Of a DNA stretch of 64,000 nt, positions 660 through 62,700 are shown in pieces (the first letter of the stretch is position 1; each line of letters opens with the position of its first letter). The notes under the pieces are model-generated. The model was not told where the DNA came from. It saw nothing but the letters and a program-made list of their open reading frames with translations, and ran no database searches. Origin of the DNA: Eledone cirrhosa (taxonomy: Eukaryota); assembly GCA_964016885.1 (NCBI GenBank), contig OZ024746.1, forward strand, positions 30,442,001 through 30,506,000, given 5' to 3'. The translations under genes were made by a program, and so were the position numbers.

Positions 660-1466
<807 letters not shown>

Positions 1467-1469
<3 letters not shown>

Positions 1470-4400
1470 AATTGAAACAAAATGAAAACGAAATTTCATT
1501 TCTCACTCTTAGTATGGCACTTACTTAAATGTAAGTATGCATGTATACGTACATACATATATGTATACAGACGTACAGTAGCATGCACATATATATACAT
1601 ATATACATACATATGCATACAGGTACACATACATATATGCACGTATCAGTTTAGCGGCGCTTATTATAACGTCGCTTTGTTCGTTTGTAAACAAACTGAA
1701 CAGCCTGAATTTATGCCATACGGTGTTAAGGCAACCACGTCACCTTTTTGTTCAACACTGACACAGGAACGATGTACTAGTTTCAAGCTTGTTAGCTATC
1801 ATCAGCACCGTTTACCCATCTGCCAGATAGTTGAACGTTCGAAAGTATATACTTCCCTTATGAAAATTAAGGCTGAGCAGCCTAATTTGCATATTGAGTG
1901 AGTTAAATCGGTCAGGCATACCGAAAACGATAAATTGAAACAAAATGAAAACGAAATTTCATTTCTCACTCTTAGTATGGCACTTACTTAAATGTAAGTA
2001 TGCATGTATACGTACATACATATATGTATACAGACGTACAGTAGCATGCACATATATATACATATATACATACATATGCATACAGGTACACATACATATA
2101 TGCACGTATCAGTTTAGCGGCGCTTATTATAACGTCGCTTTGTTCGTTTGTAAACAAACTGAACAGCCTGAATTTATGCCATACGGTGTTAAGGCAACCA
2201 CGTCACCTTTTTGTTCAACACTGACACAGGAACGATGTACTAGTTTCAAGCTTGTTAGCTATCATCAGCACCGTTTACCCATCTGCCAGATAGTTGAACG
2301 TTCGAAAGTATATACTTCCCTTATGAAAATTAAGGCTGAGCAGCCTAATTTGCATATTGAGTGAGTTAAATCGGTCAGGCATACCGAAAACGATAAATTG
2401 AAACAAAATGAAAACGAAATTTCATTTCTCACTCTTAGTATGGCACTTACTTAAATGTAAGTATGCATGTATACGTACATACATATATGTATACAGACGT
2501 ACAGTAGCATGCACATATATATACATATATACATACATATGCATACAGGTACACATACATATATGCACGTATCAGTTTAGCGGCGCTTATTATAACGTCG
2601 CTTTGTTCGTTTGTAAACAAACTGAACAGCCTGAATTTATGCCATACGGTGTTAAGGCAACCACGTCACCTTTTTGTTCAACACTGACACAGAAACGATG
2701 TACTAGTTTCAAGCTTGTTAGCTATCATCAGCACCGTTTACCCATCTGCCAGATAGTTGAACGTTCGAAAGTATATACTTCCCTTATGAAAATTAAGGCT
2801 GAGCAGCCTAATTTGCATATTGAGTGAGTTAAATCGGTCAGGCATACCGAAAACGATAAATTGAAACAAAATGAAAACGAAATTTCATTTCTCACTCTTA
2901 GTATGGCACTTACTTAAATGTAAGTATGCATGTATACGTACATACATATATGTATACAGACGTACAGTAGCATGCACATATATATACATATATACATACA
3001 TATGCATACAGGTACACATACATATATGCACGTATCAGTTTAGCGGCGCTTATTATAACGTCGCTTTGTTCGTTTGTAAACAAACTGAACAGCCTGAATT
3101 TATGCCATACGGTGTTAAGGCAACCACGTCACCTTTTTGTTCAACACTGACACAGGAACGATGTACTAGTTTCAAGCTTGTTAGCTATCATCAGCACCGT
3201 TTACCCATCTGCCAGATAGTTGAACGTTCGAAAGTATATACTTCCCTTATGAAAATTAAGGCTGAGCAGCCTAATTTGCATATTGAGTGAGTTAAATCGG
3301 TCAGGCATACCGAAAACGATAAATTGAAACAAAATGAAAACGAAATTTCATTTCTCACTCTTAGTATGGCACTTACTTAAATGTAAGTATGCATGTATAC
3401 GTACATACATATATGTATACAGACGTACAGTAGCATGCACATATATATACATATATACATACATATGCATACAGGTACACATACATATATGCACGTATCA
3501 GTTTAGCGGCGCTTATTATAACGTCGCTTTGTTCGTTTGTAAACAAACTGAACAGCCTGAATTTATGCCATACGGTGTTAAGGCAACCACGTCACCTTTT
3601 TGTTCAACACTGACACAGGAACGATGTACTAGTTTCAAGCTTGTTAGCTATCATCAGCACCGTTTACCCATCTGCCAGATAGTTGAACGTTCGAAAGTAT
3701 ATACTTCCCTTATGAAAATTAAGGCTGAGCAGCCTAATTTGCATATTGAGTGAGTTAAATCGGTCAGGCATACCGAAAACGATAAATTGAAACAAAATGA
3801 AAACGAAATTTCATTTCTCACTCTTAGTATGGCACTTACTTAAATGTAAGTATGCATGTATACGTACATACATATATGTATACAGACGTACAGTAGCATG
3901 CACATATATATACATATATACATACATATGCATACAGGTACACATACATATATGCACGTATCAGTTTAGCGGCGCTTATTATAACGTCGCTTTGTTCGTT
4001 TGTAAACAAACTGAACAGCCTGAATTTATGCCATACGGTGTTAAGGCAACCACGTCACCTTTTTGTTCAACACTGACACAGAAACGATGTACTAGTTTCA
4101 AGCTTGTTAGCTATCATCAGCACCGTTTACCCATCTGCCAGATAGTTGAACGTTCGAAAGTATATACTTCCCTTATGAAAATTAAGGCTGAGCAGCCTAA
4201 TTTGCATATTGAGTGAGTTAAATCGGTCAGGCATACCGAAAACGATAAATTGAAACAAAATGAAAACGAAATTTCATTTCTCACTCTTAGTATGGCACTT
4301 ACTTAAATGTAAGTATGCATGTATACGTACATACATATATGTATACAGACGTACAGTAGCATGCACATATATATACATATATACATACATATGCATACAG

Positions 4401-5247
4401 GTACACATACATATATGCACGTATCAGTTTAGCGGCGCTTATTATAACGTCGCTTTGTTCGTTTGTAAACAAACTGAACAGCCTGAATTTATGCCATACG
4501 GTGTTAAGGCAACCACGTCACCTTTTTGTTCAACACTGACACAGGAACGATGTACTAGTTTCAAGCTTGTTAGCTATCATCAGCACCGTTTACCCATCTG
4601 CCAGATAGTTGAACGTTCGAAAGTATATACTTCCCTTATGAAAATTAAGGCTGAGCAGCCTAATTTGCATATTGAGTGAGTTAAATCGGTCAGGCATACC
4701 GAAAACGATAAATTGAAACAAAATGAAAACGAAATTTCATTTCTCACTCTTAGTATGGCACTTACTTAAATGTAAGTATGCATGTATACGTACATACATA
4801 TATGTATACAGACGTACAGTAGCATGCACATATATATACATATATACATACATATGCATACAGGTACACATACATATATGCACGTATCAGTTTAGCGGCG
4901 CTTATTATAACGTCGCTTTGTTCGTTTGTAAACAAACTGAACAGCCTGAATTTATGCCATACGGTGTTAAGGCAACCACGTCACCTTTTTGTTCAACACT
5001 GACACAGGAACGATGTACTAGTTTCAAGCTTGTTAGCTATCATCAGCACCGTTTACCCATCTGCCAGATAGTTGAACGTTCGAAAGTATATACTTCCCTT
5101 ATGAAAATTAAGGCTGAGCAGCCTAATTTGCATATTGAGTGAGTTAAATCGGTCAGGCATACCGAAAACGATAAATTGAAACAAAATGAAAACGAAATTT
5201 CATTTCTCACTCTTAGTATGGCACTTACTTAAATGTAAGTATGCATG
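1467..5247 (-). mobile_element. 463-bp HHR-containing tandem array, left arm (~8.2 units; ribozyme sense on minus strand)
   Basis: Exact 463-bp period (ORF starts 1482, 1945, 2408 ... 4723). HHR motif on minus strand at 1768-1812 and every +463 to 5009-5053. The sense 3' end (...TTTCAATTTAT) joins (TA)n at 1467. Confidence 0.9.
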
Positions 5248-5248
5248 C

Positions 5249-7785
5249 ACAAAAAAGGTGACGTGGTTGCCTTAACACCGTATGGCATAAATTCAGGCTG
5301 TTCAGTTTGTTTACAAACGAACAAAGCGACGTTATAATAAGCGCCGCTAAACTGATACGTGCATATATGTATGTGTACCTGTATGCATATGTATGTATAT
5401 ATGTATATATATGTGCATGCTACTGTACGTCTGTATACATATATGTATGTACGTATACATGCATACTTACATTTAAGTAAGTGCCATACTAAGAGTGAGA
5501 AATGAAATTTCGTTTTCATTTTGTTTCAATTTATCGTTTTCGGTATGCCTGACCGATTTAACTCACTCAATATGCAAATTAGGCTGCTCAGCCTTAATTT
5601 TCATAAGGGAAGTATATACTTTCGAACGTTCAACTATCTGGCAGATAGGTAAACGGTGCTGATGATAGCTAACAAGCTTGAAACTAGTACATCGTTCCTG
5701 TGTCAGTGTTGAACAAAAAGGTGACGTGGTTGCCTTAACACCGTATGGCATAAATTCAGGCTGTTCAGTTTGTTTACAAACGAACAAAGCGACGTTATAA
5801 TAAGCGCCGCTAAACTGATACGTGCATATATGTATGTGTACCTGTATGCATATGTATGTATATATGTATATATATGTGCATGCTACTGTACGTCTGTATA
5901 CATATATGTATGTACGTATACATGCATACTTACATTTAAGTAAGTGCCATACTAAGAGTGAGAAATGAAATTTCGTTTTCATTTTGTTTCAATTTATCGT
6001 TTTCGGTATGCCTGACCGATTTAACTCACTCAATATGCAAATTAGGCTGCTCAGCCTTAATTTTCATAAGGGAAGTATATACTTTCGAACGTTCAACTAT
6101 CTGGCAGATGGGTAAACGGTGCTGATGATAGCTAACAAGCTTGAAACTAGTACATCGTTCCTGTGTCAGTGTTGAACAAAAAGGTGACGTGGTTGCCTTA
6201 ACACCGTATGGCATAAATTCAGGCTGTTCAGTTTGTTTACAAACGAACAAAGCGACGTTATAATAAGCGCCGCTAAACTGATACGTGCATATATGTATGT
6301 GTACCTGTATGCATATGTATGTATATATGTATATATATGTGCATGCTACTGTACGTCTGTATACATATATGTATGTACGTATACATGCATACTTACATTT
6401 AAGTAAGTGCCATACTAAGAGTGAGAAATGAAATTTCGTTTTCATTTTGTTTCAATTTATCGTTTTCGGTATGCCTGACCGATTTAACTCACTCAATATG
6501 CAAATTAGGCTGCTCAGCCTTAATTTTCATAAGGGAAGTATATACTTTCGAACGTTCAACTATCTGGCAGATGGGTAAACGGTGCTGATGATAGCTAACA
6601 AGCTTGAAACTAGTACATCGTTCCTGTGTCAGTGTTGAACAAAAAGGTGACGTGGTTGCCTTAACACCGTATGGCATAAATTCAGGCTGTTCAGTTTGTT
6701 TACAAACGAACAAAGCGACGTTATAATAAGCGCCGCTAAACTGATACGTGCATATATGTATGTGTACCTGTATGCATATGTATGTATATATGTATATATA
6801 TGTGCATGCTACTGTACGTCTGTATACATATATGTATGTACGTATACATGCATACTTACATTTAAGTAAGTGCCATACTAAGAGTGAGAAATGAAATTTC
6901 GTTTTCATTTTGTTTCAATTTATCGTTTTCGGTATGCCTGACCGATTTAACTCACTCAATATGCAAATTAGGCTGCTCAGCCTTAATTTTCATAAGGGAA
7001 GTATATACTTTCGAACGTTCAACTATCTGGCAGATGGGTAAACGGTGCTGATGATAGCTAACAAGCTTGAAACTAGTACATCGTTCCTGTGTCAGTGTTG
7101 AACAAAAAGGTGACGTGGTTGCCTTAACACCGTATGGCATAAATTCAGGCTGTTCAGTTTGTTTACAAACGAACAAAGCGACGTTATAATAAGCGCCGCT
7201 AAACTGATACGTGCATATATGTATGTGTACCTGTATGCATATGTATGTATATATGTATATATATGTGCATGCTACTGTACGTCTGTATACATATATGTAT
7301 GTACGTATACATGCATACTTACATTTAAGTAAGTGCCATACTAAGAGTGAGAAATGAAATTTCGTTTTCATTTTGTTTCAATTTATCGTTTTCGGTATGC
7401 CTGACCGATTTAACTCACTCAATATGCAAATTAGGCTGCTCAGCCTTAATTTTCATAAGGGAAGTATATACTTTCGAACGTTCAACTATCTGGCAGATGG
7501 GTAAACGGTGCTGATGATAGCTAACAAGCTTGAAACTAGTACATCGTTCCTGTGTCAGTGTTGAACAAAAAGGTGACGTGGTTGCCTTAACACCGTATGG
7601 CATAAATTCAGGCTGTTCAGTTTGTTTACAAACGAACAAAGCGACGTTATAATAAGCGCCGCTAAACTGATACGTGCATATATGTATGTGTACCTGTATG
7701 CATATGTATGTATATATGTATATATATGTGCATGCTACTGTACGTCTGTATACATATATGTATGTACGTATACATGCATACTTAC

Positions 7786-7787
<2 letters not shown>
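5249..7787 (+). mobile_element. 463-bp HHR-containing tandem array, inverted right arm (~5.5 units)
   Basis: Reverse complement of the left-arm unit. HHR motifs at 5652, 6115, 6578, 7041 and 7504. Ends at ...CATGCATACTTACAT, running into (TA)n. Confidence 0.9.
5652..5696 (+). ncRNA. Minimal type I hammerhead ribozyme motif (representative of 20 copies)
   Basis: AACGGTG-CTGATGA-T-AGCT(AACA)AGCT-T-GAAA-CTAG-TA-CATCGTT. Stem I AACGGTG/CATCGTT (7 bp, one G-U), intact core boxes, palindromic stem III ACTAGT, GUA triplet with predicted cut after 5689. Stem II closes with a non-canonical U-U. Confidence 0.8.
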
Positions 7788-7860
<73 letters not shown>

Positions 7861-7926
7861 TATACATATACATATATATACATATACATATATAAATATA
7901 TATATATATATATTTATATATGTATA

Positions 7927-7960
<34 letters not shown>

Positions 7961-8153
7961 CATATATATATAGATATATATACATACATATATATATATA
8001 CATAAATATATATATATATATACATAAATATATATATATATATACATACATATATATATATATATACATAAATATATATATATATATATACATAAATATA
8101 TATATATATATACATAAATATATATATATATATACATAAATATATATATATAC

Positions 8154-8208
<55 letters not shown>

Positions 8209-8221
8209 TATATAGATATAT

Positions 8222-8300
<79 letters not shown>

Positions 8301-8313
8301 TATATAGATATAT

Positions 8314-8370
<57 letters not shown>

Positions 8371-8443
8371 TAGATATATATACATACATATATATATATA
8401 TATATACATACATATATACATACATATGTATATATATATATAC

Positions 8444-8486
<43 letters not shown>

Positions 8487-8661
8487 TATACATATATATA
8501 TATACATATATATACATATACATACATATATATACATATATATACATATACATACATATACATATACATATATATATACATATACATATACATATATATA
8601 CATATATATACATATATATACATATACATATACATATATATACATATATATACATATATAT

Positions 8662-8727
<66 letters not shown>
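7788..8727. repeat. Compound (TA)n microsatellite
   Basis: Seen directly. Confidence 0.95.
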
Positions 8728-16657: not shown

Positions 16658-16719
<62 letters not shown>

Positions 16720-16768
16720 AGTATGTATGTATACGTACATACATGTATGTATACAGAAGTACAGTAGC

Positions 16769-16830
<62 letters not shown>

Positions 16831-16833
<3 letters not shown>

Positions 16834-17339
16834 AAAACAAATAACGAAACGAAATTAAATTTCGTTTCGTTTGTAACTCACTTTTGTATGACTGACGCTT
16901 AAACAATTAAGTTAAAAATGTACATCCACATATGTATACTGAAATACTAGTATGCATATGAATACTCAAACGTGCACATATGTAGATGTACCGAGTTTTT
17001 CACTGGACACTTTACTGTGAGTGTTCAGCTATTCTGTATGTAAACACACAGTGGCTTTCTGGAGAATAGAGGAAAGGTGTTTCCTCGAAAACCAGTATGA
17101 CTCTAAAAACCGGTTTGTCTGTGTGTTTACATACAGAATAGCTGAACACTCACAGTAAAGTGTCCAGTGAAAAACTCGGTACATCTACATATGTACACGT
17201 GTGTGTATTCATATGCATACTAGTATTTCAGTATACATATGTGGATGTACATTTTTAACTTAATTGTTTAAGCGTCAGTCATACAAAAGTGAGTTACAAA
17301 CGAAACGAAATTTAATTTCGTTTCGTTATTTGTTTTTAT
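16831..17339. repeat. ~220-bp inverted repeat (16831-17051 / 17119-17339) with ~67-bp spacer
   Basis: Arms are reverse complements with very few mismatches. The terminus resembles the 463-bp unit end. The left end abuts (TA)n. Confidence 0.85.
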
Positions 17340-17559
17340 CGTCTCCGCTGAACCGGTACGTACTCACGCTCTATGCAAATTAGTCTGCCCACTACTTGAA
17401 ACTAGTACATCGTTCCTGTGTCAGTGTTGAACAAAAAGGTGACGTGGTTGCCTTAACACCGTACGGCATAAATCAGGCTGTCCGTTTGTTTACAAACGAA
17501 CAAAGCGAACATTATAATAAATGTTCGCTAAACTGATACGTACATATATATATGTTTGC

Positions 17560-17631
<72 letters not shown>

Positions 17632-17730
17632 GCTACTGTACTTCTGTATACATATATGTATGTACGTATACATACATACTTGCATTTAAGTAAGTGCCGT
17701 ACTAAGAGTGAGAAATGAAATTTCGTTTCA
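17340..17730 (+). mobile_element. Diverged, internally deleted copy of the 463-bp unit
   Basis: TATGCAAATTAG...CTTGAAACTAGTACATCGTTCCTGTGTCAGTG...GAGAAATGAAATTTCGTTTC. The 5' half of the HHR (CTGATGA) is deleted and the internal TA tract is expanded. Confidence 0.85.
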
Positions 17731-17744
17731 TTCTATTCTATCTA

Positions 17745-18106: not shown

Positions 18107-21100
18107 GCCTTTCTCAGTTTACGATGACTTACCAGCTATATATAAGGGATAATAGAGACCTCTTTCTCAATCCACCATGCCTAAACAGTTATACATAAGT
18201 AGTATTCGATACCTTTCTCAGTTCACTATGGCATATCAGTTATACATACGGGACTTTTAATACCTTCCCGAGCGTTCCAAGGCGCACCAGTTATATATAA
18301 GGGATATTTGATACCTATCTCAATCCACCAAGGCTCACCAGTTATATATAAGGGATATTTGATACCTATCTCAATCCACCAAGGCTCACCAGTTATATAT
18401 AAGGGATATTTGATACCTATCTCAATCCACCAAGGCTCACCAATTATATATAAGGGATATTTGATACCTATCTCAATCCACCAAGGCTCACCAATTATAT
18501 ATAAGGGATATTTGATACCTATCTCAATCCACCAAGGCGCACCAGTTATATATAAGGGATATTTGATACCTATCTGAATCCACCAAGGCTCACCAGTTAT
18601 ATATAAGGGATATTTGATACCTATCTGAATCCACCAAGGCTCACCAGTTATATATAAAGGACATTTGATACCTATCTCAATCCACCAAGGCTCACCAGTT
18701 ATATATAAAGGACATTTGATACCTATCTCAATCCACCAAGGCTCACCAGTTATATATAAAGGACATTTGATACCTATCTCAATCAACCAAGGCTCACCAG
18801 TTATATATAAAGGACATTTGATACCTATCTCAATCCACCAAGGCTCACCAGTTATATATAAAGGACATTTGATACCTATCTCAATCCACCAAGGCTCACC
18901 AGTTATATATAAAGGACATTTGATACCTATCTCAATCCACCAAGGCTCACCAGTTATATATAAAGGACATTTGATACCTATCTCAATCCACCAAGGCTCA
19001 CCAGTTATATATAAAGGACATTTGATACCTATCTCAATCCACCAAGGCTCATCAGTTATATATAAAGGACATTTGATACCTATCTCAATCCACCAAGGCT
19101 CACCAGTTATATATAAAGGACATTTGATACCTATCTCAATCCACCAAGGCTCACCAATTATATATAAGGGATATTTGATACCTATCTCAATCCACCAAGG
19201 CTCACCAGTTATATATAAGGGATATTTGATACCTATCTCAATCCACCAAGGCTCACCAATTATATATAAGGGATATTTGATACCTATCTCAATCCACCAA
19301 GGCTCACCAGTTATATATAAGGGATATTTGATACCTATCTCAATCCACCAAGGCTCGCCAGTTATATATAAGGGATATTTGATACCTATCTCAATCCACC
19401 AAGGCTCACCAGTTATATATAAAGGACATTTGATACCTATCTCAATCCACCAAGGCTCACCAGTTATATATAAGGGATATTTGATACCTATCTCAATCCA
19501 CCAAGGCTCACCAGTTATATATAAGGGACATTTGATACCTATCTCAATCCACCAAGGCTCACCGGTTATATATAAGGGATATTTGATACCTATCTCAATC
19601 CACCAAGGCTCACCAGTTATATATAAAGGACATTTGATACCTATCTCAATCCACCAAGGCTCACCAGTTATATATAAAGGACATTTGATACCTATCTCAA
19701 TGCACCAAGGCTCACCGGTTATATATAAGGGATATTTGATACCTATCTCAATCCACCAAGGCTCACCAGTTATATATAAAGGACATTTGATACCTATCTC
19801 AATCCACCAAGGCTCACCAGTTATATATAAAGGACATTTGATACCTATCTCAATCCACCAAGGCTCACCAGTTATATATAAAGGACATTTGATACCTATC
19901 TCAATCCACCAAGGCTCACCAGTTATATATAAAGGATATTTGATACCTATCTCAATCCACCAAGGCTCACCGGTTATATATAAGGGATATTTGATACCTA
20001 TCTCAATCTACCAAGGCTCACCAGTTATATATAAAGGACATTTGATACCTATCTCAATCCACCAAGGCTCACCAGTTATATATAAGGGATATTTGATACC
20101 TTCCCCAGTTCACCAAGGCAGGCTCACCAGTTATATATAAGGGATGTTTGATACCTTCCCCAGTTCACCAAGGCAGGCTCACCAGTTATATATAAGGGAT
20201 GTTTGATACCTTCCCCAGTTCACCAAGGCAGGCTCACCAGTTATATATAAGGGATATTTGATACCTTCCCCAGTTCACCAAGGCAGGCTCACCAGTTATA
20301 TATAAGGGATGTTTGATACCTTCCCCAGTTCACCAAGGCAGGCTCACCAGTTATATATAAGGGATATTTGATACCTTCCCCAGTTCACCAAGGCAGGCTC
20401 ACCAGTTATATATAAGGGATGTTTGATACCTTCCCCAGTTCACCAAGGCAGGCTCACCAGTTATATATAAGGGATAGTTGATACCTTCCCCAGTTCACCA
20501 AGGCTCTCCAGTTATATATAAGGGATATTCGATACCTTTCTTAGTCTGTATAGACTTACCAGCTATATCTAACTGGATTCCTTTCTCAGTCTGTATAGAC
20601 TTACCAGCTATATCTAACTGGATACCTTTCTCGGTCTGTATTGAATTACCAGCTATATCTAACTGGATTCCTTTCTCAGTCTGTATTGACTTACCAGCTA
20701 TATCTAACTGGATACCTTTCTTAGTCTGTATATACTTACCAGCTATATCCAACTGGATACCTTTCTCAGACTGTATAGACTTACCAGCTATATCTAACTG
20801 GATACCTTTCTCAGTCTGTATTGAATTACCAGCTATATCTAACTGGATTCCTTTCTCAGTCTGTATTGACTTACCAGCTATATCTAACTGGATACCTTTC
20901 TTAGTCTGTATAGACTTACCAGCTATATCTAACTGGATACCTTTCTCAGTCTGTATATACTTACCAGCTATATCCAACTGGATACCTTTCTCAGACTGTA
21001 TAGACTTACCAGCTATATCTAACTGGATACCTTTCTCAGTCTGTATTGAATTACCAGCTATACCTAACTGGATACCTTTCTTAGTCTGTATAGACTTACC

Positions 21101-21830
21101 AGCTATATCTAACTGGATACCTTTCTTAGTTTGTATAGACTTACCAGCTATATCCAACTGGATACCTTTCTCAGTCTGTGTAGACTTACCAGCTATATCT
21201 AACTGGATACCTTTCTCAGTCTGTGTAGACTTACCCGCTATATCTAACTGGATACCTTTCTTAGTCTGTATAGACTTACCAGCTATATCCAACTGGATAC
21301 CTTTCTCAGACTGTATTGAATTACCAGCTATATCTAACTGGATACATTTCTTAGTCTGTATAAACTTACCACTTATAACTAACTGGATACCTTTCTCAGA
21401 CTGTATAGACTTACCAGCTATATCTAACTGGATACCTTTCTTAGTATGTATAGACTTACCAGCTATATCTAACTGGATTCCTTTCTCAGACTGTATAGAC
21501 TTACCAGCTATATCTAACTGGATACCTTTCTCAGTCTGTATAGACTTACCAGCTATATCTAACTGAATACCTTTCTCGGTCTGTATAGACTTACCAGCTA
21601 TATCTAACTGGATCACTTTCTCAGTCTGTATAGACTTACCACTTATAACTAACTGGATTCCTTTCTCAGTCTGTATTGAATTACCAGCTATATCTAACTG
21701 GATACCTTTCTTAGTCTGTATAGACTTACCAGCTATATCTAACTGGATACCTTTCTCAGTCTCTATTGACTTACCAGCCATATCTAACTGGTATTCGATA
21801 CCTTTCCCAGTCCGCCATGGCATATCAGCT
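18107..21830. repeat. Compound minisatellite: 51-bp (~18277-20100, ~36 copies), 55-bp (20101-20485, 7 copies), 45-bp (20531-21790, ~28 copies)
   Basis: Periods read directly. All units share GATACCT..CTCA/CCCA..ACCAG(T/C)TATAT; degenerate units flank both sides. Confidence 0.95.
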
Positions 21831-31964: not shown

Positions 31965-32757
31965 TTCCAGCATAGTTACGTCCCTTTACGGTCTGAGTTC
32001 AAATCCCGCCGAGGTTAACTTTGCCTTTCATCCTTACGGGGTCGATAAAATAAAGTACCAGTAATGTACTGGGTAATTGATGGCCTTGTGCCAAAAGTAG
32101 AAACAATTATTATTATTATCATATGGAAATGGCGGTGGATTGGCAGTATCGGTAGAGGGTCGGACGCCATGCTTTCCAGCATAGTTACGTCCCTTTACGG
32201 ACTGAGTTCAAATCCCGCCGAGGTTAACTTTGCCTTTCATCCTTACGGGGTCGATAAAATAAAGTACCAGTAATGTACTGGGTAATTGATGGCCTTGTGC
32301 CAAAAGTAGAAACAATTATTATTATTATCATATGGAAATGGCGGTGGATTGGCAGTATCGGTAGAGGGTCGGACGCCATGCTTTCCAGCATAGTTACGTC
32401 CCTTTACGGACTGAGTTCAAATCCCGCCGAGGTTAACTTTGCCTTTCATCCTTACGGGGTCGATAAAATAAAGTACCAGTAATGTACTGGGTAATTGATG
32501 GCCTTGTGCCAAAAGTAGAAACAATTATTATTATTATCATATGGAAATGGCGGTGGATTGGCAGTATCGGTAGAGGGTCGGACGCCATGCTTTCCAGCAT
32601 AGTTACGTCCCTTTACGGACTGAGTTCAAATCCCGCCGAGGTTGACTTTGCCTTTCATACTTACGGGGTCGATAAAATAAAGTACCAGTAATGTACTGGA
32701 TAATTGCTGGCCTTGTGCCTAAAGTAGAAACAATTATTATTATTATCATATGGAAAT
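31965..32757 (+). mobile_element. Tandem array of SINE family 2 (209-bp period, ~3.8 units)
   Basis: ORF starts 32064, 32273 and 32482 give the period. Each unit has an A box, a GAGTTCAAATCC B box, the central domain and an (ATT)n tail. Confidence 0.85.
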
Positions 32758-43390: not shown

Positions 43391-43614
43391 AAGAGTTGAT
43401 TGAGTGCATCTATGCTCACAACCTCATGGACACTTAAAACATTTACCAAGTCATACTCTATTGCGAACGACGGATGTAGGATATATGCAGATACACACAC
43501 CACACACATCCAGCGTTAAGCAAATATATATCTCCATTGTACTGCATTGCATCCTGTGTTGTTTATCCATTATATATATATATATATATAATGGATAAAC
43601 AACACAGGATGTAC

Positions 43615-46600
43615 AACGTTCAACTATCTGGCAGATGGGTAAACGGTGCTGATGATAGCTAACAAGCTTGAAACTAGTAGATCGTTCCTGTGTCAGTGTT
43701 GAACAAAAAGGTGACGTGGTTGCCTTAACACCGTATGGCATAAATTCAGGCTGTTCAGTTTGTTTACAAACGAACAAAGCGACGTTATAATAAGCGCCGC
43801 TAAACTGATACGTGCATATATGTATGTGTACCTGTATGCATATGTATGTATATATGTATATATATGTGCATGCTACTGTACGTCTGTATACATATATGTA
43901 TGTACGTATACATGCATACTTACATTTAAGTAAGTGCCATACTAAGAGTGAGAAATGAAATTTCGTTTTCATTTTGTTTCAATTTATCGTTTTCGGTATG
44001 CCTGACCGATTTAACTCACTCAATATGCAAATTAGGCTGCTCAGCCTTAATTTTCATAAGGGAAGTATATACTTTCGAACGTTCAACTATCTGGCAGATG
44101 GGTAAACGGTGCTGATGATAGCTAACAAGCTTGAAACTAGTACATCGTTCCTGTGTCAGTGTTGAACAAAAAGGTGACGTGGTTGCCTTAACACCGTATG
44201 GCATAAATTCAGGCTGTTCAGTTTGTTTACAAACGAACAAAGCGACGTTATAATAAGCGCCGCTAAACTGATACGTGCATATATGTATGTGTACCTGTAT
44301 GCATATGTATGTATATATGTATATATATGTGCATGCTACTGTACGTCTGTATACATATATGTATGTACGTATACATGCATACTTACATTTAAGTAAGTGC
44401 CATACTAAGAGTGAGAAATGAAATTTCGTTTTCATTTTGTTTCAATTTATCGTTTTCGGTATGCCTGACCGATTTAACTCACTCAATATGCAAATTAGGC
44501 TGCTCAGCCTTAATTTTCATAAGGGAAGTATATACTTTCGAACGTTCAACTATCTGGCAGATGGGTAAACGGTGCTGATGATAGCTAACAAGCTTGAAAC
44601 TAGTACATCGTTCCTGTGTCAGTGTTGAACAAAAAGGTGACGTGGTTGCCTTAACACCGTATGGCATAAATTCAGGCTGTTCAGTTTGTTTACAAACGAA
44701 CAAAGCGACGTTATAATAAGCGCCGCTAAACTGATACGTGCATATATGTATGTGTACCTGTATGCATATGTATGTATATATGTATATATATGTGCATGCT
44801 ACTGTACGTCTGTATACATATATGTATGTACGTATACATGCATACTTACATTTAAGTAAGTGCCATACTAAGAGTGAGAAATGAAATTTCGTTTTCATTT
44901 TGTTTCAATTTATCGTTTTCGGTATGCCTGACCGATTTAACTCACTCAATATGCAAATTAGGCTGCTCAGCCTTAATTTTCATAAGGGAAGTATATACTT
45001 TCGAACGTTCAACTATCTGGCAGATGGGTAAACGGTGCTGATGATAGCTAACAAGCTTGAAACTAGTACATCGTTCCTGTGTCAGTGTTGAACAAAAAGG
45101 TGACGTGGTTGCCTTAACACCGTATGGCATAAATTCAGGCTGTTCAGTTTGTTTACAAACGAACAAAGCGACGTTATAATAAGCGCCGCTAAACTGATAC
45201 GTGCATATATGTATGTGTACCTGTATGCATATGTATGTATATATGTATATATATGTGCATGCTACTGTACGTCTGTATACATATATGTATGTACGTATAC
45301 ATGCATACTTACATTTAAGTAAGTGCCATACTAAGAGTGAGAAATGAAATTTCGTTTTCATTTTGTTTCAATTTATCGTTTTCGGTATGCCTGACCGATT
45401 TAACTCACTCAATATGCAAATTAGGCTGCTCAGCCTTAATTTTCATAAGGGAAGTATATACTTTCGAACGTTCAACTATCTGGCAGATGGGTAAACGGTG
45501 CTGATGATAGCTAACAAGCTTGAAACTAGTACATCGTTCCTGTGTCAGTGTTGAACAAAAAGGTGACGTGGTTGCCTTAACACCGTATGGCATAAATTCA
45601 GGCTGTTCAGTTTGTTTACAAACGAACAAAGCGACGTTATAATAAGCGCCGCTAAACTGATACGTGCATATATGTATGTGTACCTGTATGCATATGTATG
45701 TATATATGTATATATATGTGCATGCTACTGTACGTCTGTATACATATATGTATGTACGTATACATGCATACTTACATTTAAGTAAGTGCCATACTAAGAG
45801 TGAGAAATGAAATTTCGTTTTCATTTTGTTTCAATTTATCGTTTTCGGTATGCCTGACCGATTTAACTCACTCAATATGCAAATTAGGCTGCTCAGCCTT
45901 AATTTTCATAAGGGAAGTATATACTTTCGAACGTTCAACTATCTGGCAGATGGGTAAACGGTGCTGATGATAGCTAACAAGCTTGAAACTAGTACATCGT
46001 TCCTGTGTCAGTGTTGAACAAAAAGGTGACGTGGTTGCCTTAACACCGTATGGCATAAATTCAGGCTGTTCAGTTTGTTTACAAACGAACAAAGCGACGT
46101 TATAATAAGCGCCGCTAAACTGATACGTGCATATATGTATGTGTACCTGTATGCATATGTATGTATATATGTATATATATGTGCATGCTACTGTACGTCT
46201 GCATACATATATGTATGTACGTATACATGCATACTTACATTTAAGTAAGTGCCATACTAAGAGTGAGAAATGAAATTTCGTTTTCATTTTGTTTCAATTT
46301 ATCGTTTTCGGTATGCCTGACCGATTTAACTCACTCAATATGCAAATTAGGCTGCTCAGCCTTAATTTTCATAAGGGAAGTATATACTTTCGAACGTTCA
46401 ACTATCTGGCAGATGGGTAAACGGTGCTGATGATAGCTAACAAGCTTGAAACTAGTACATCGTTCCTGTGTCAGTGTTGAACAAAAAGGTGACGTGGTTG
46501 CCTTAACACCGTATGGCATAAATTCAGGCTGTTCAGTTTGTTTACAAACGAACAAAGCGACGTTATAATAAGCGCCGCTAAACTGATACGTGCATATATG

Positions 46601-46759
46601 TATGTGTACCTGTATGCATATGTATGTATATATGTATATATATGTGCATGCTACTGTACGTCTGTATACATATATGTATGTACGTATACATGCATACTTA
46701 CATTTAAGTAAGTGCCATACTAAGAGTGAGAAATGAAATTTCGTTTTCATTTTGTTTCA

Positions 46760-46765
<6 letters not shown>
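43615..46765 (+). mobile_element. Second 463-bp HHR-containing tandem array (~6.8 units)
   Basis: Same unit as 1467-7787. HHRs at 43642 and every +463 to 46420. 5'-truncated; 3' end ...TTTCAATTTAT joins (TA)n exactly as at 1467. Confidence 0.9.
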
Positions 46766-52162: not shown

Positions 52163-55100
52163 CTACAGAACAATGTAGAGAGAAGGCCCATTTACACGGG
52201 CCATTCTCGCTTCTTTCACCCACCTTTCATAAAACTGTCTGGGACCAAGCACTTCTCTCTCCATCCTGATTCTTCTTCCGAAGTGGTATCGGAAGAAGTA
52301 AACCAGGTGATGGCCGGAAAGAAAGTCACCCGACCTCAGACCTTTCAGGCGCATCCACCACACAACCTCTTTCATCATGGCTATTACGCACAGAAAGACC
52401 GCCTCTGCTTCATTTCTGAAGGGAGGAGGCGGCTTGATGTTCACCACAGACTCGGCGGTTAATCGAATCGGCGCCACACGCGGCAGCAGTCGTTCGACGT
52501 AGCCCCACAGATCGGCAACGCCCGGGCAGTGTACCAGTGCATGCGCAACGGTTTCCTCGTCGCGCACGCATCTGGGACAGATCTTTTTCGCGGGATCCCT
52601 GCCCGGGCGCCCGTGTCTGTAGAGCTTTTCTCGAACGGGCAGAGCCCCCGGTAACACTGCCAGGCTAGGGACCTCTGGAAGTTGTCCATGGGTCCCGGGC
52701 CGAAAGTTCTACCGAACAGGCTGGCCAGTTCGTCCTCCTTCATGTCTAGCGACTCTCCAAGGGTGTCGTCGCCCCTGCTAGCCACCAACCCTCTATAGAA
52801 TGTCGAGGTGGATTCTCCACTGACAGTCGGGTCCGCTTGCCAGATAGCCGTGAGCGCCTGGGCACACTCGGTGTGCCAGTTGCCCAGTTTTCTCGGTCTT
52901 TGCTTCACCCAGGATTGCAGTTCGGTGAGCGAGACGAGCTGTGGGAAGGCTCGCCTCACAAACGGGGCCCACACCGGCTGACCGTTGAGGAATACCTGTA
53001 GATGCCGTAGCCTCAATGCGTGCCTACGCATCAACAGCCACTGCATACCCAGCCCTCCTTTCGAAGGGTGCTGGCAGCAGATGGATCTCCTCACCATGGG
53101 AGGCCGCTTCTTCCAGAGGAACTGGAAGAGCATGCGTTCCATGATGGTGAGCTTTTCCTTGGGGCAAGGCACGACGGTCAGGCGGTAGTAGATGACGGAC
53201 GCTATGTAAGCGTTCGTCACCTCCGCCCGACCTTTCAGTGATAGTTTGCACTTGGCCCACTTCTGGGTCAGCGCAAACACCCTGCTCGTCACCTCGCCCC
53301 AATTCTTCTCCACCTGGAGGTCCGGTCCGAACCAGACCCCGAGCAGCTTCACCGGGCCCTCCGTCCACCGCCCGACGACACCGTCTAACGGCATCGGTTT
53401 GCCCCTCCACGTTCCGAGTTGCAAACCGACTGACTTGTCCTGGTTCAGCTTAGCCCCCGTCAGCCTTTCGTATTCCTCCAGTAGGGTGGCGATCGCCCCG
53501 ATTTCCGAGGCGTCCGCCACCATTACTGTTACGTCGTCGGCATAGGCCGAGACCGCTTTGTGCAATCCCGGTTCCGGGGGTATGCCCCGCAGCAACTCCA
53601 ACTTCCGCAGCAGTGGCTCGAGAGTCAATACGTACAGAAGGGAGGAGAGGGGGCACCCCTGTCTGATGGATCGGGTGATTTGAAACGGCTCCGAGAGGTA
53701 GCCGTTTACTTTAATCCTAGAGTAGATGTTGCCACTGTGCATGGCAGAAATCCAGCCCCTGAAAACGGGTCCGAAGCCCGCCGCCGCTAGCACCGCATCC
53801 AGGTAACCATGGTCGACCCTATCGAACGCCTTAGATTGATCCAAGTTGATCAGGGCCCCACCAAAGCCGGGTTCGTAGCCAACCCTCTCTATGATGTATC
53901 GCATGAGGTGGAGGTTGTCGTGAATGGACCTGGACGGGATAGCGCATGTCTGCGCGTCTCCCACCAAACCACCCACCACAAGCGCCAACCTCTTCGCCAA
54001 CACCTTGGCCAAAATCTGTAACTCTGCATTCAGCAGAGTTATGGGCCTAAAGTTACTTAAGTCGTCCCCCTTGCTCTCGTCCTTCCTCACTAGCGTGACC
54101 ACGCCCTTGATCACAGAACAGGGAATTCTCCCGTTCTGTTGCCAGTTGCAATAGACAGCCTCGAGGAGTTCGGAGAACAAGACCGGCATAGCTAAATAAA
54201 GTTCGTATGGTAGACCATCGAGACCCGGGGATTTGCGTCTGCTGCATTGGCTGAGCGCTTCCCCGATTTCAGTGGCTGTGATTGGCCTTTCGCAGCACTC
54301 CGCTTCGCCGCTCGAAAGACGCGGTAGACCGTCGAGGTATGGACCGAAGTCCACATCCCCGTCCGGCCCCCCGCCACCTCCGAACAGTCGAGCAAAGTGC
54401 CTTTGAAAGGTCTCGCACATTCGCTCAGGTTCAAGGATCACCCGTCCATCCTGGTCTCGCAAAGACCGAATGGTGGATTTAATCCCACTCTTGGCTTCTG
54501 TCACGCGGGCCCAGCTAACAGCTTTGGTCCCCTCGTTTCCTAAAGCACGTATTTTACTTCGGACAACGCAGCCTTCGTGCTTCGCGTCAAAGAACTGGCT
54601 CAATGCCGTTCTCGTCGCTAACACTCTGGCTACGTCTCCGCTCCTAATCGCCTCTTCTAGTTTATCTGTTAACTCCCTTTCCCTCCTATTTCTATTCGCC
54701 GCTAGTTCCTTACTGTAACCTATCGAACTTACTCTAATCTCTCTCTTTAGAGATATCCACCACCTACTGTTGACGATCGCTCCCGTCAACCGCATCTTAA
54801 CTAAGCTACTAATCTGGTTTCTGTAATCTTTCTTTGTCGGTAAGGACAAGTTCATCTTCCAGTAACCGGGACCCTGTCTATGCGTTCTATCAAGGTTGAC
54901 CACGCAGGTCACTAATTTGTGATCTGAATAGCCAACCATGATCAGTTCTGGACAACTAAATACGTCCCTATCCTTACTCCTAACCAAAAACCTATCTAGG
55001 TACGATCTAGATTGTCCACTGCGGTTTGCCCAGGTCCAGGTTGGCGCAGTTGGACAATCTAGTCGAAATCTATCGACCAGGTCGAATCGATCGAGTAACC

Positions 55101-55604
55101 CCTTGAGGCTGCTACACCCCCCTCTATCGGGACATGCCCCTGCATAGTCCCAACGCGCATCTAGGATTCCATTCCAGTCCCCCACTAAAAGCAGGGAACG
55201 CGACGTTCCTAGAAAAGTCTCCAGACGCTGGAAGAAGTCGGCTCTTTCCGCCCCGAAGGGAGCATAAAGACCGACCAGTCTGAAAGCCCCGCCTTCACCG
55301 CCTCCGACGTCCAGCACCAGTAATCGACCCCCCGGGTCCGAGTGAACAATCTGTACGTCGAGAGTCAGACGTTTATCCAGCAGTACGGCAACTCCCCCCC
55401 CCCCCTGCCTCCGGGTTGACAGAGAGATGCGTGCATCTCAAAGTCATCGAAGGCGGGCGCCAGCTGTCTCACGCTGCTGATCCGACTCTCGCAAACAACC
55501 ATCACATCTATACTTTGTGACCTGAGGTCACTTAGAAGCTTTGCTTGCTTCCAAGCTGAGCCCAGGCCACGCGCGTTCAAACAGCCAACTCTCAATTGAT
55601 CTAT
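52163..55604 (-). CDS. LINE ORF2: AP endonuclease, reverse transcriptase, C-terminal zinc finger (2 homopolymer frameshifts)
   Basis: LNARGL, CESR, VGDWN, SYLDRFL and YSDH (APE); KSPGLDG, FRPITLLN, LDQSKAFDRV, QGCPLS and AYADD (RT); CPRC...ETVAHALVHC. Joined from ORFs 55365-55595, 52459-55317 and 52163-52657. Confidence 0.85.
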
Positions 55605-58714: not shown

Positions 58715-59697
58715 CATTTTTTTATTAGCCACAAGGGCACAAAAGAAGGGAACAAATACAAATGGGGAGTTTACATACAGGTATATGAAAATAAAACTAT
58801 TAATAAAATAACAAATAACAATTGAAATCCCCAATAGGGAGGAGGCGTTACACAGGGGTTGTACACACCCCGAAAAAATGTACAACCCTCATCTCCAGGA
58901 GCACCAAGAGTGAGTACTCCCTTCCTCTCTTCCTCTTTTTCCTCAATCTACAGGCTTATATAGAGAGAGGCCCAACCACTCGGGCCATCTTTGTCACATT
59001 CACCCACCTTTTATAAAATTTGCTGGGGTACAGCACCTCTCTCTCCATCCTGATTCTTCTTCCTAAATGATATTTGAGAAAACGAATCAGTTGCTCGCCG
59101 GAGAGAAAGGTGTCTGACCTCAGCCCTTTTAACCTCGTCCACCATATAACCTCTTTCAGCATAGCCATAACACATAGGAAAACCGCCTCTCCCTCGTTTT
59201 TGAAGGAGGGTGGCGGTTTGATCATGACAATGGACTCGGTGGTCAACTGGATTGGTCCCACCCGCGACAATAGTCGTTCTACATAGCCCCACAGGTCGGT
59301 AACGCCCGGGCAGTGTACAAATGCGTGCGCGACGGTTTCCTCGTCGCGCACGCATCTCGGACAGATCTTTTTCGAAGGGTCCCTGCCTGGGCGTCCGTGT
59401 CTGTAGAGCTTGTCTCGAACTGGTAGAGATCCTCGGTAGCACTGCCAGGCCAGCGACTTTTGGAAGTTGTCCATTGGTCCCGGGAGGAAGGTCCTACTGA
59501 ACAGACTGGCCAGTTCGTCCTCCTCTACGCCTAGAGTTTCTCCGAGCGCGTCGTCGCACCTGCTGCTGACCAACCCTCTATAGAATGTCGAAGTGGAGTC
59601 TCCACTGATCGCCGGGTCCGTTTGCTAGAGGACTGTGAGCGCCTGAGCACATTCGATGTGCCAGTCGCCCATTTTCCTCGGTCTTTGCTTGACCCCA
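58715..59697 (-). mobile_element. 5'-truncated L1/Tx1-type LINE (copy 2), flanked by (GATA)n
   Basis: ORF 58956-59573 is homologous to the ORF2 C-terminus of copy 1, with the same 3' end. (GATA)n at ~58673-58714 and 59697-59729. Confidence 0.9.
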
Positions 59698-59732
59698 GAT
59701 AGATAAATAGATAGATAGATAGATAGATATAT

Positions 59733-62700
59733 AACTTTCTATTTATTTGCCACCAGGGCATCAGAGATTGGGTCAAATACAAGGGGGGGGGGGGGGGGGG
59801 TTACATACATTTCAAAGGACGTGTAAAAACATATAACAAATCAAATTCAACAATCGAAGTTCTCAATAGGGAGGGGGCGTTGACATGGGTCGCACACACC
59901 CCCGAAAAAAAATGTGCAACCCTCCTCCTCAGGAGCACAAAGAGCGAGTTCTCCCTTCCTCTCCTCCTTCTTCACCTCTCTCACCTACAGGCTGATATAG
60001 AGAGAGGGCCCATTAACTCGGGCCATTCTCACCACTTTCACCCACCTTTCATAAAATTTGATGGGGTAGAGCACCTCCCTCTCCATTCTGATCCTTCTTC
60101 TAAAATGGTACTTGGAAAAAAAGACCAGTTGTTGGCCGGAGAAAATAGTGTCTGACCTCAGCCCTTTCAACCTCGTCCACCAATCAACCTCTTTCGCCAT
60201 AGCTATCACACAGAGGAAAACCGCCTCTCCTTCGTTTTTGAAGGGGGGAGGCGGTTTGATTGTGACAATGTACTCGGGGGTCAACCGGATTGGTCCCACC
60301 CGCGACAGTAGTCGTTCCACATAGCCCCACAGGTCAGCAACGCCCAGGCAATGTACGAATGCGTGCGCGACGGTTTCCTCGTCATGCACGCATCTCGGAC
60401 AGATCTTCTTCGAGGGGTCTCTACCCGGGCGCCCGTGTCTGTAGAGCTTGTTCCGAACGGGTAGAGCTCCTCGGTAGCACTGCCAAGCCAGGGACTTTTG
60501 GAAGTTGGCCATCGGTCTCGGGACAAACGCCCTACCGCACATACTTGCTAGCTCGTCTTCCTCCATGCCCAGAGCCTCTTTGAGAGCGTCGTCACACTGG
60601 CTGCGCACCAACCCTCTATAGAATGTTGAGGTTGAGTCTCCACAGATTGCCGGATCCGCTTGCCAGAGGGCCGTGAGGGCCTGGGCACATTCAATGTGCC
60701 AGTCGCCCACTTTTCTCGGTCTTTGCTTGACCCACGATTGCAGCTCGGTGAGTGAGGCGAGTCTCGGAAAGGCTCGCCTCACAAAAGAGGCCAACACCGG
60801 CTGACCGGCGAGGAATACCTGGAGGTGCCGTAGCCTTAATGCGTGTCTATGCATCGTCAGCCACGGCATCCCCCAGCCCTCCGTTCGAAGGGTGTTGACA
60901 GCAGATGGATCTTCTCACCAAAGGGGCCGCTTCTTCCAAAGGAATCGGAAGAGCGCGCGCTCCATTTTGGCGAACGTTTTCGCTGGGCAAGGCACGACGG
61001 TCAAGCGGTAGTAGATGACGGACCTTTCAAGGATAGTTTGCACTCGGCTCACTTCTGGACGAGTGCAAACACCCTGCCCGTTACCTCGTCCCAGTTTTTC
61101 TCCACCTGGAGGTTCGGTCCGGACCAGACCCCGAGCAGCTTCACCGGTCCCTCCGTCCAGCGTCCGACGACGCCGTTGGCGGGCATCGGTTTGCCTCTCC
61201 ACGTTCCGAGTTGCAAACCGACGGACTTGTCCCTGTTCAGCTTGGCTCCTGTAAACCTTTCGTATTCCTCCAGTAAGGTGCAGATCTGCCCGATTTCCGA
61301 GGCGCACGACACCATTGCTGTCACGTCATCGGCGTAGGCCGACACCGATTTCCGCAATCCCAGTTCCAAGGGGATTCCCTGCAACAGCTCCAACTTCCGC
61401 AGTAGTGGCTCGAGAGCCAGCACATACAGAAGGGAGGAGAGAGGGCATCCCTGTCGGATGGATCGCGCGATTTGGAACGGCTCCGAGAGGTACCCGTTCC
61501 CCTTGACCCTCGAGCAGGTGTTACTGCTATGCATTGCAGTAATTCAGCCCCTGAAAACGGGCCGAAGCCTGCCGCCGCGAGCACCGCATCCAGGTACCGA
61601 TGGTCGACCCTATCGAACGCCTTAGTTTGATCCAAGTTGATCAGGGTCCCACCAAAGCCGGGTTCATTCCCCACCCTCTCTACGGTGTATCGCATGAGAT
61701 GGAAGTTATCGTGTATGGACCTGGACGGGATTGCGCATGTCTGCACTTCTCCCACCAGGTTCCCGACGACAAGCACCAACCTCTTCGCTAACACCTTGGC
61801 CAAAATCTTTAACTCTGTGTTTAACAGATTTATGGGCCTGAAGTTATCTATGTCATCCCCTTGTTCTCGTCCTTCCTCACCAGCGTAACTACGCCCTTAG
61901 TCACAGAACTGGGAATTCTCCCGTTTTGTTGCCAGTTGCAGTAGACCGCCTCGAGGAGATCGGAGAACAAGTCCGGCATCGCTACATAAAGTTCGTATGG
62001 TAGACCATCGAGAACGCATTGACTCAGCGCTTCCCCTATTTCAGCGGCTGAAATCGGCCTTTCGCAGGACTTCGCCAACCCGTCCGAGAGCCGCGGCAGA
62101 CCGTCGAGGTATGGACCGAAATCCATGGCCTCACCCGGCCCGCCGCTCCTCTCGAACAGTGGTGCAAAGCGCCGTTGAAAGGCCGCGTCCATCCGCTCAG
62201 GTTCAACGATCACGCGTCCATCCTGGTCCTTCAAAGACCGAATCATAGACTTGTTTCCAATTTTTGCCTCTGTCACTCGGGCCCTGCTAACAGCTTTGGC
62301 TCCCTCGTTACCCAGAGCACGTATTTTACTCCTGACAACTCAGCCCTTGTGCTTCGGATCAAAGAACTGATCTAGGGCCGTTCTTGACACCAGCACACCG
62401 ACCGCGTTACCACTCCTAATCGCCTCTGCTACTCTATCTATCAATTCCCTTTCAGTTCTATTCCTATCTGATGCTAATTCCTGACTAAAACCTATCGATT
62501 CTATTCTAATTTCTCTCTTGAGAGAGCCCACCACCTGCTGTTGACAATTTCCCCCATCAACCGCTGCTTAACTAGAGTGCTAATCCGCTTACTGTAAGCT
62601 TTGTTTGTCGGTAAGGACAAGTTTAGCTTCCAGTAACCGGGTCCTTGTCTATGGGTTCTATCAAGGTTGACCACTCCGGTCACCAACTTGTGATCCGAAT

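What the first reader, a model, noticed from the sequence alone, without database searches (positions are those of the whole stretch)
5231..7787. Inversion breakpoints coincide in unit coordinates: twin-priming signature on a multimeric template
Seen: read in ribozyme sense, the inverted arm (5249 to 7787) stops at ...CATGCATACTTACAT and the other arm (5247 to 1467) starts at CATGCATACTTACATTTAAG. These are the same point of the 463-bp unit, with about 15 bp overlap, and both outer ends enter (TA)n. Established: twin priming of non-LTR elements gives a 5' inversion whose outer end is contiguous with the start of the non-inverted part. Inference: the whole ~6.3-kb block was inserted in one event from a 13-14-mer RNA or by rolling-circle reverse transcription, not grown by unequal crossover.
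Basis: partly seen in the sequence, partly recalled or inferred. Interest (0 to 1): 0.8.

Follow-up and report, generated by a model that had tools for sequence, protein, structure and literature searches.

The report
Two-ended Penelope-type ribozyme repeat insertion
This is a back-to-back insertion of a 463-base self-cutting-RNA repeat whose two arms end at two different fixed points of the repeat, as they do at about a hundred other sites in this genome, likely because a Penelope-type enzyme copied the RNA onto both cut DNA ends at once; the breakpoint match that drew attention is likely chance.

Summary
Arm B ends at unit position 246 and arm A starts at 232, a 15-nt overlap, and both outer ends run into (TA)n. 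Position 243-250 is simply a family-wide fixed end. Every resolved head-to-head insertion has one arm ending near 308 (site A) and the other near 246 (site B): 97 A/B pairs and no A/A or B/B pair. This is the known Penelope-like (PLE) 'inverted copy plus tail' layout, and autonomous RT+GIY-YIG PLEs in this genome show it too. Insertion in one event is still supported, but by other evidence: the two arms share variants, units diverge in a star pattern, and array length does not track age. True adjacent twin priming appears only in a 55-67-nt tail-only class (9 of 78). A period-3 variant in arm A means this arm may also have grown locally. Public contigs did not bridge the junction. Verdict: a retrozyme with a PLE dual-priming signature, useful for PLE mechanism.

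The parts
679..1469 (.). Left (TA)n target tract
   Evidence: TRF
1467..5247 (-). Arm A: 8.17 retrozyme units, 5'-truncated at unit 232, 3' end at fixed site A (unit 308)
   Evidence: site-A end plus TA has 822 exact matches genome-wide
1467..1525 (-). The ~60-nt 'tail' (unit 250-308) between site B and site A, at the outer end of arm A only
   Evidence: tail concept from PMC8557442, PMC11167929
5248..5251 (+). 4-nt junction insert; matches the antisense of unit 186-189, reached through a 5-nt microhomology (templated insert, inferred)
5252..7787 (+). Arm B: 5.48 units, 5'-truncated at unit 26 (just 3' of the ribozyme cut), 3' end at fixed site B (unit 243-250)
7786..8726 (.). Right (TA)n target tract
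   Evidence: TRF
6116..6158 (+). Type I hammerhead motif, one per unit (5 on +, 8 on - in this block): 6-bp stem I, CUGAUGA core, 4-bp stem II, GAAA, palindromic helix III
   Evidence: not detected by Rfam at gathering score; cleavage untested
5010..5052 (-). First hammerhead motif of arm A (repeats every 463 nt down to 1769-1811)
2693..2693 (-). Point variant at unit 8, shared with 4082 (period of 3 units), absent from arm B
4082..4082 (-). Second copy of the unit-8 variant
5647..5647 (+). Private variant of arm B (unit 421)
43615..46765 (+). Second insertion of the same young subfamily: single arm of 6.8 units, unit 399 to site A (308) into (TA)n

Best explanation
The block is one head-to-head insertion of a non-coding hammerhead retrozyme into a (TA)n tract, with one arm ending at fixed site A and the other at fixed site B, likely made by a Penelope-like RT/GIY-YIG enzyme priming both cut target ends on the repeat RNA. 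Shown: the geometry; two fixed 3' ends about 60 nt apart; strict A+B pairing; scattered 5' ends joined through microhomology or short inserts; arms of one insertion carry the same unit variant; long arms diverge in a star pattern. Inferred: (1) a PLE protein, probably a dimer, cuts both strands of (TA)n; (2) one end primes at site A (unit 304-309) and the other at site B (243-250, a hairpin loop), each with 2-3 nt of TA pairing; (3) both RTs run for 0.05-17 units on a multimeric or circular RNA, by strand displacement where they overlap; (4) in about 12% of cases RT-A stops at site B of the same unit, which points to one shared RNA; (5) end joining fuses the two truncated cDNAs. At this locus the stop at unit 232 is likely an ordinary truncation at the base of a hairpin that happens to lie 15 nt from site B. 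The period-3 variant in arm A likely reflects a multi-unit template or a later 3-unit duplication.
For: Site-A end: 822 exact matches, control 0. Of the first 100 listed, 81 are head-to-head; in 78 the partner ends at 240-253 and in none at site A. Of 28 site-B ends chosen for lacking an exact site-A match, 19 have a partner ending at 285-309 and none a site-B partner. Tail-only class: 9 of 20 A arms of 30-200 nt are 55-67 nt, p=7e-6; B-arm control 2 of 18, p=0.40; later laps do not stop there. Microhomology of 1 nt or more at 87% of 46 insert-free joins against 46% at random, p=9e-9. Arms identical in 24 of 36 loci against about 20% for foreign arms. 36 arms of 4 or more units: 66 singleton and 15 shared variants; length against age rho=0.01; one 13.8-unit arm has 22 singletons and none shared. 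Autonomous PLEs in this genome (RT + C-terminal GIY-YIG) are head-to-head with a 45-60-nt tail on one arm only: L123, L118, L120. In vitro, an anole PLE cuts and extends both strands and starts RT at two adjacent internal sites that bound the tail (PMC11167929).
Against: No autonomous partner was identified: blastn of the unit found no homology to the PLE bodies in 20 loci; the only link is one 12-nt match in the L118-family tail (1 of 3000 shuffles, post hoc). PMC11167929 saw no difference in start site between strands in vitro, which does not predict strict A/B pairing. 8 of 36 long arms, including arm A here, carry variants shared among units, which a monomer circle cannot give. In L038 the arms share a multi-unit pattern offset by one unit, so A and B need not lie in the same unit. 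The tail-only excess replicates weakly in the second batch alone (2 of 5, p=0.05). Target-site duplications cannot be read in (TA)n. The junction was not confirmed in reads.
Confidence: 0.7

Rival explanations
1. L1-type twin priming on one linear 13-14-mer: the second primer anneals next to where the first cDNA ended, so the arms are contiguous, non-overlapping parts of one RNA.
For: Geometry fits and the offset here is -15. L1 inversions show 1-10-bp deletions or duplications at this point (PMC11702581). Arm B starts near the ribozyme cut, as an RNA 5' end would. Contiguity is real in the tail-only class.
Against: 0 of 59 other multi-lap arms within 15 nt. Site B is fixed family-wide, not chosen by where the first cDNA ended. 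A 15-nt overlap exceeds the 1-10 bp cited. No donor with the tandem unit-8 variant pattern among 70 genome matches.
Confidence: 0.07
2. Same two sites, but on two separate RNA molecules held by a PLE dimer whose two subunits each use a different site.
For: Arms often cover the same unit positions for many laps. In the window arm A has a period-3 variant that arm B lacks. PAc is predicted to be a dimer (PMC11167929).
Against: First-lap-only stops of RT-A at site B and same-variant arms are simpler with one RNA; a single expressed source per cell could mimic the latter.
Confidence: 0.12
3. Snap-back self-priming: one cDNA (or an antisense template) folds back at a palindrome and copies itself to give the inverted arm, as proposed for PLEs in PMC3846280.
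For: Two loci have exactly mirrored inner starts (L015, L064; 2 of 109, 0.24 expected). Flank fold-backs at (TA)n occur in some single-arm insertions.
Against: Mirror starts within 15 nt: 9 of 109 against 7.3 expected. B is longer than A in 48 and A longer than B+70 in 52 of 109. In the window the starts are 232 and 26.
Confidence: 0.04
4. A short inverted PLE-type insertion followed by local tandem growth through unequal crossover or slippage (the route suggested in bioRxiv 2026.07.22.740005).
For: Arm A's only variant recurs at period 3 and nowhere else in tandem. 8 of 36 long arms have shared variants.
Against: 28 of 36 long arms have no shared variant; 16-17-unit arms have 0-1 variants; length does not rise with age; arm lengths are smooth from 23 nt to 8 kb. 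L026 shows period 5 within 8.3 units, which one in-place duplication cannot give.
Confidence: 0.05
5. Fold-back or chimeric assembly artefact.
For: Palindromic repeats are hard to assemble, and no contig bridged the junction.
Against: The arms are not mirror images (starts 232 and 26, different ends, different private variants, 4-nt insert), the flanks differ, and about 110 loci share the same biologically patterned ends.
Confidence: 0.02

Closest known systems
Canonical Penelope-like element insertions (inverted 5'-truncated copy plus one-sided tail; PMC8557442, PMC3846280, PMC11167929)
   Same: Head-to-head 5'-truncated arms, a tail on one end only, two internal RT start sites, (TA)n target, type I hammerhead with palindromic helix III.
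   Different: No ORF; both arms are multi-unit arrays up to 17 units; tail about 60 nt against the 30-40 nt reported; strict one-A-plus-one-B pairing was not reported in the passages read.
Metazoan non-LTR retrozymes (PMC7229834; bioRxiv 10.64898/2026.07.22.740005)
   Same: Non-coding, low-GC tandem repeat with one type I hammerhead per unit, dispersed as dimers to multimers, co-existing with PLEs.
   Different: Unit 463-475 nt against about 170-400 nt. Head-to-head arrangement and fixed ends are not described: 'inverted' occurs 0 times in the main text of PMC7229834 and once, in a reference title, in the preprint. Circular RNA untested here.
L1 twin priming / 5' inversion (PMC2912911, PMC11702581)
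   Same: Both target ends primed on RNA, head-to-head product, microhomology at the inversion junction.
   Different: The second priming site is fixed, not variable; inner and outer breakpoints are uncoupled in multi-lap arms; no poly(A); contiguity only in the tail-only class.

Membership tests
L1-type twin priming | Head-to-head geometry with both 3' ends outward | tested here: met
L1-type twin priming | Start of the first cDNA lies next to the second priming site (1-10 bp deletion or duplication, PMC11702581) | tested here: not met
   0 of 59 multi-lap arms within 15 nt; window -15; met only in the tail-only class, 9 of 78
L1-type twin priming | Second priming site variable, set by microhomology | tested here: not met
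   78 of 80 resolved partners end at 240-253 although unit 130-235 is TA-rich
L1-type twin priming | Microhomology at the inversion junction | tested here: met
   87% against 46% at random; the window's own junction has a 4-nt insert instead
L1-type twin priming | Target-site duplication | not testable with these tools
   flanks are (TA)n
PLE-type insertion | Inverted 5'-truncated copy at the 5' end | tested here: met
   81 of 100 site-A ends
PLE-type insertion | Tail on one end only, bounded by two RT start sites | tested here: met
   97 A/B pairs, 0 same-site; tail about 60 nt; start sites inferred from ends
PLE-type insertion | AT-rich or (TA)n target | tested here: met
   note that the search patterns required TA, the 20 similarity-chosen loci did not
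PLE-type insertion | Autonomous RT + GIY-YIG element with the same layout in the genome | tested here: met
PLE-type insertion | Homology to the pLTR of a specific autonomous partner | tested here: inconclusive
   none in 20 loci of 10,597 candidates; one 12-nt match
Non-LTR retrozyme | Tandem non-coding units, GC below 45%, each with a type I hammerhead | tested here: met
   stem I shows a compensatory change in 2 diverged copies
Non-LTR retrozyme | Self-cleavage and circular RNA | not testable with these tools
   no RNA holder listed

The most novel reading that the evidence does not exclude
PLE transposition is an obligately asymmetric double-priming reaction: one RNP engages one RNA at two fixed sites about 60 nt apart, site A always on one target end and site B on the other, and both RTs run many laps by strand displacement around a retrozyme circle or multimer. 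This one rule would explain the PLE inverted copy, the one-sided tail and the birth of kilobase satellite arrays in a single step.
Probability: 0.45. Interest if true: 0.72.

Novelty: new member of a known kind. Interest (0 to 1): 0.5.

Why it matters
How PLEs make inverted/tailed insertions is named as open in PMC8557442, and how retrozyme arrays arise (inserted whole or amplified locally) is open in PMC7229834 and the 2026 preprint. This young family gives hundreds of natural products with readable ends. It shows that retrozymes carry the PLE integration signature, that the two start sites are paired A+B, and that multimers mostly arrive whole. It names exact start positions on a 463-nt RNA for an in vitro test.

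Tried and rejected
Rfam at gathering score found no family in the window; the hammerhead call rests on motif anatomy. MFE folding does not give the hammerhead as a monomer, as expected for a palindromic helix III; my constrained-energy calculation was mis-specified and is not used. Reads: no RNA holder listed. Contigs of 5 runs hold both halves of the unit, but no listed piece bridged 5247-5252; these are unitigs, perhaps of other individuals, so this is inconclusive. The empty allele could not be tested. BLAST-based breakpoints over-ran into TA repeats, so exact extension was used, with BLAST only to correct palindromic mis-seeds. Reciprocal coincidence (B start against A end): 2 of 85, 5.7 expected. 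Donor search for the unit-8 variant: no tandem donor among 70 matches. The variant private to L077 among my loci occurs at 5 genomic sites, three of them multi-unit, so it does not prove a single mutated circle. A partner PLE was not found. Earlier findings: none listed. The original L1 twin-priming paper was not held.

Full report
Observation. The block 1467-7787 is two arrays of a 463-bp unit set head to head between (TA)n tracts. With unit position 1 set after the hammerhead cut site, arm A (- strand, 5247->1467) runs from 232 to 308 over 8.17 units and arm B (+, 5252->7787) from 26 to 246 over 5.48 units, with a 4-nt insert between. The 15-nt overlap at 232-246 is real. Chance gives such a match in 6.7% of cases for one pairing, 12.9% for either.

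The unit. Each unit has a type I hammerhead motif: 6-bp stem I, CUGAUGA, 4-bp stem II, GAAA and a palindromic helix III, the form said to work as a dimer in tandem repeats (PMC4209133, passages). Rfam did not call it. The block holds no credible ORF. This fits non-LTR retrozymes (PMC7229834, passages). The genome is 3.0 Gb; no call names the organism.

The site-A end plus TA has 822 exact matches, control 0. I took the first 100 listed, all on contig C1. Result: 81 head-to-head, 18 single-armed, 1 beside an assembly gap. Of the 81, 78 have the partner ending at 240-253, two end elsewhere (L041, L070) and one runs beyond the stretch (L144). Twelve of 20 similarity-chosen loci were added; L010 was already counted, and L017, L019 (irregular) and five single-armed loci were left out. 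Among A arms longer than 543 nt, 0 of 48 start within 15 nt of the partner's outer end (3.2 expected; KS p=0.82), and 0 of 59 with the site-B sample; the nearest is -17. So the match does not recur. Tables were entered by hand from the script output. Five B ends (L047, L049, L059, L068, L084) were read by eye, about a dozen inner starts were corrected, and starts at 368 or 384 are upper bounds caused by subfamily differences; none of these lies near 247.

What is really there. The outer ends are two fixed sites: A at 304-309 and B at 243-250, the latter in the loop of a predicted hairpin. They pair strictly. No site-A partner in 78; and of 28 site-B ends picked from the first 100 rows for lacking an exact site-A match, 19 have a partner ending at 285-309, 9 are single or unclear, and none pairs with site B. 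The 60 nt between the sites is therefore a one-sided tail. Inner joins show microhomology (87% of 46 insert-free joins against 46%; 18 of 64 scored joins have 1-13-nt inserts; 14 of 78 not scored). Genuine contiguity exists in one class: 9 of 78 A arms are 55-67 nt and stop at site B (9 of 20 arms of 30-200 nt, p=7e-6; B control 2 of 18; second batch alone 2 of 5, p=0.05). Later laps do not stop there, so a hairpin alone does not explain it; a second primer or RT on the same RNA would (inference).

One event or local growth. The two arms of an insertion are identical outside the microsatellite segment in 24 of 36 loci, against about 20% for foreign arms (37 given, 1 with too little overlap). 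In 36 arms of 4 or more units there are 66 singleton and 15 shared variants; 28 arms have none shared, arms of 16-17 units have 0-1 variants, and length does not track age (rho 0.01). Multimers thus mostly arrive whole, against the local-amplification route in bioRxiv 2026.07.22.740005 (abstract, introduction, part of methods, passages and Discussion read). Against a plain monomer circle: 8 of 36 arms have periodic shared variants; L026 has period 5 in 8.3 units; L038 shares a pattern between arms offset by one unit; and arms longer than one unit start just 3' of the ribozyme cut more often than expected (12 of 85 in unit 1-30, 5.5 expected, p=0.009, width chosen among three), as cut linear multimers or a stall at the circle's junction would give. 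In the window, arm A's only variant recurs at period 3 (2693, 4082), is absent from arm B, and has no tandem twin among 70 genome matches: a trimer template for arm A or a later duplication.

The likely enzyme. A GIY-YIG search gave 10,597 candidates, 150 scored. In 20 long-ORF loci there are RT + C-terminal GIY-YIG PLEs. L123 is head-to-head, carries a minimal hammerhead, and has one short end and one end about 55 nt longer, both into (TA)n; L118 and L120, of another family, have inverted ends with about 60 nt more on one. No partner homology was found beyond a 12-nt match. The literature gives the frame: an inverted 5'-truncated copy and a 30-40-bp one-sided tail are typical of PLEs (PMC8557442 and PMC3846280, passages), and an anole PLE cuts and extends both strands and starts at two adjacent internal sites that bound the tail (PMC11167929, parts 1-3 of 4 read). 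L1 twin-priming features are from passages of PMC2912911 and PMC11702581. The snap-back model of PMC3846280 predicts mirrored inner starts; these are 9 of 109 within 15 nt, 7.3 expected, with 2 exact cases.

Artefact. The arms are not mirror images, the flanks differ, and about 110 loci share the pattern. Direct confirmation is lacking: contigs of public runs did not bridge the junction, so unit counts rest on the assembly.

Novelty. The parts are known: retrozyme, PLE layout, two start sites. I did not find head-to-head retrozyme arrays, strict A+B pairing or twin priming applied to PLEs in the searches; the library lacks most subscription papers and I read no supplements, which may show such structures. 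Verdict: observation confirmed, proposed signature chance, single-event dual priming supported by other evidence; new member of a known kind with useful mechanistic content; interest 0.5.

Noticed in passing
window 43550-43614: The 5' side of the single-armed array is an inverted copy of its own flank folded at a (TA)10 tract; similar fold-backs in L074, L063, L056 and L087. The second target end may self-prime when it does not prime on RNA.
   Followed up: partly
window 16712-17732: Older, diverged head-to-head pair of the same family with similar ends, with a palindromic element of another family nested between the arms.
   Followed up: partly
window 52462-55437 (-) and 58956-63755 (-): LINE with endonuclease, RT and zf-RVT domains (992-aa frame) and a second, broken copy.
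   Followed up: no
window 18131-21791: Adjacent 51-bp (46.7 copies) and 45-bp (28 copies) minisatellites; a 209-bp x3.8 repeat at 31965-32757.
   Followed up: no
L010:3752-5907 and L018:4186-5871: Two loci share the inner junction (unit 285 with 4-5) and A-arm length (1437 nt) but differ in variants and show no flank homology.
   Followed up: partly
L056, L063, L071, L164 and window 5247: Several arms stop at unit 232-233, at the base of a predicted hairpin; a possible RT pause site that would explain the window's breakpoint. Not significant after multiple testing.
   Followed up: partly
L118:6470-6590, L120:5917-6035: The tail of this autonomous PLE family shares a 12-nt word with the retrozyme tail; a lead for the mobilising partner. 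The family also seems to carry an atypical hammerhead core (by eye).
   Followed up: partly
L026:7788-9701, L035, L046, L052, L056, L086: RT-like frames without a Pfam hit in the one tested (L026) recur beside these insertions; they resemble Naiad-type PLEs (recalled, not tested).
   Followed up: no
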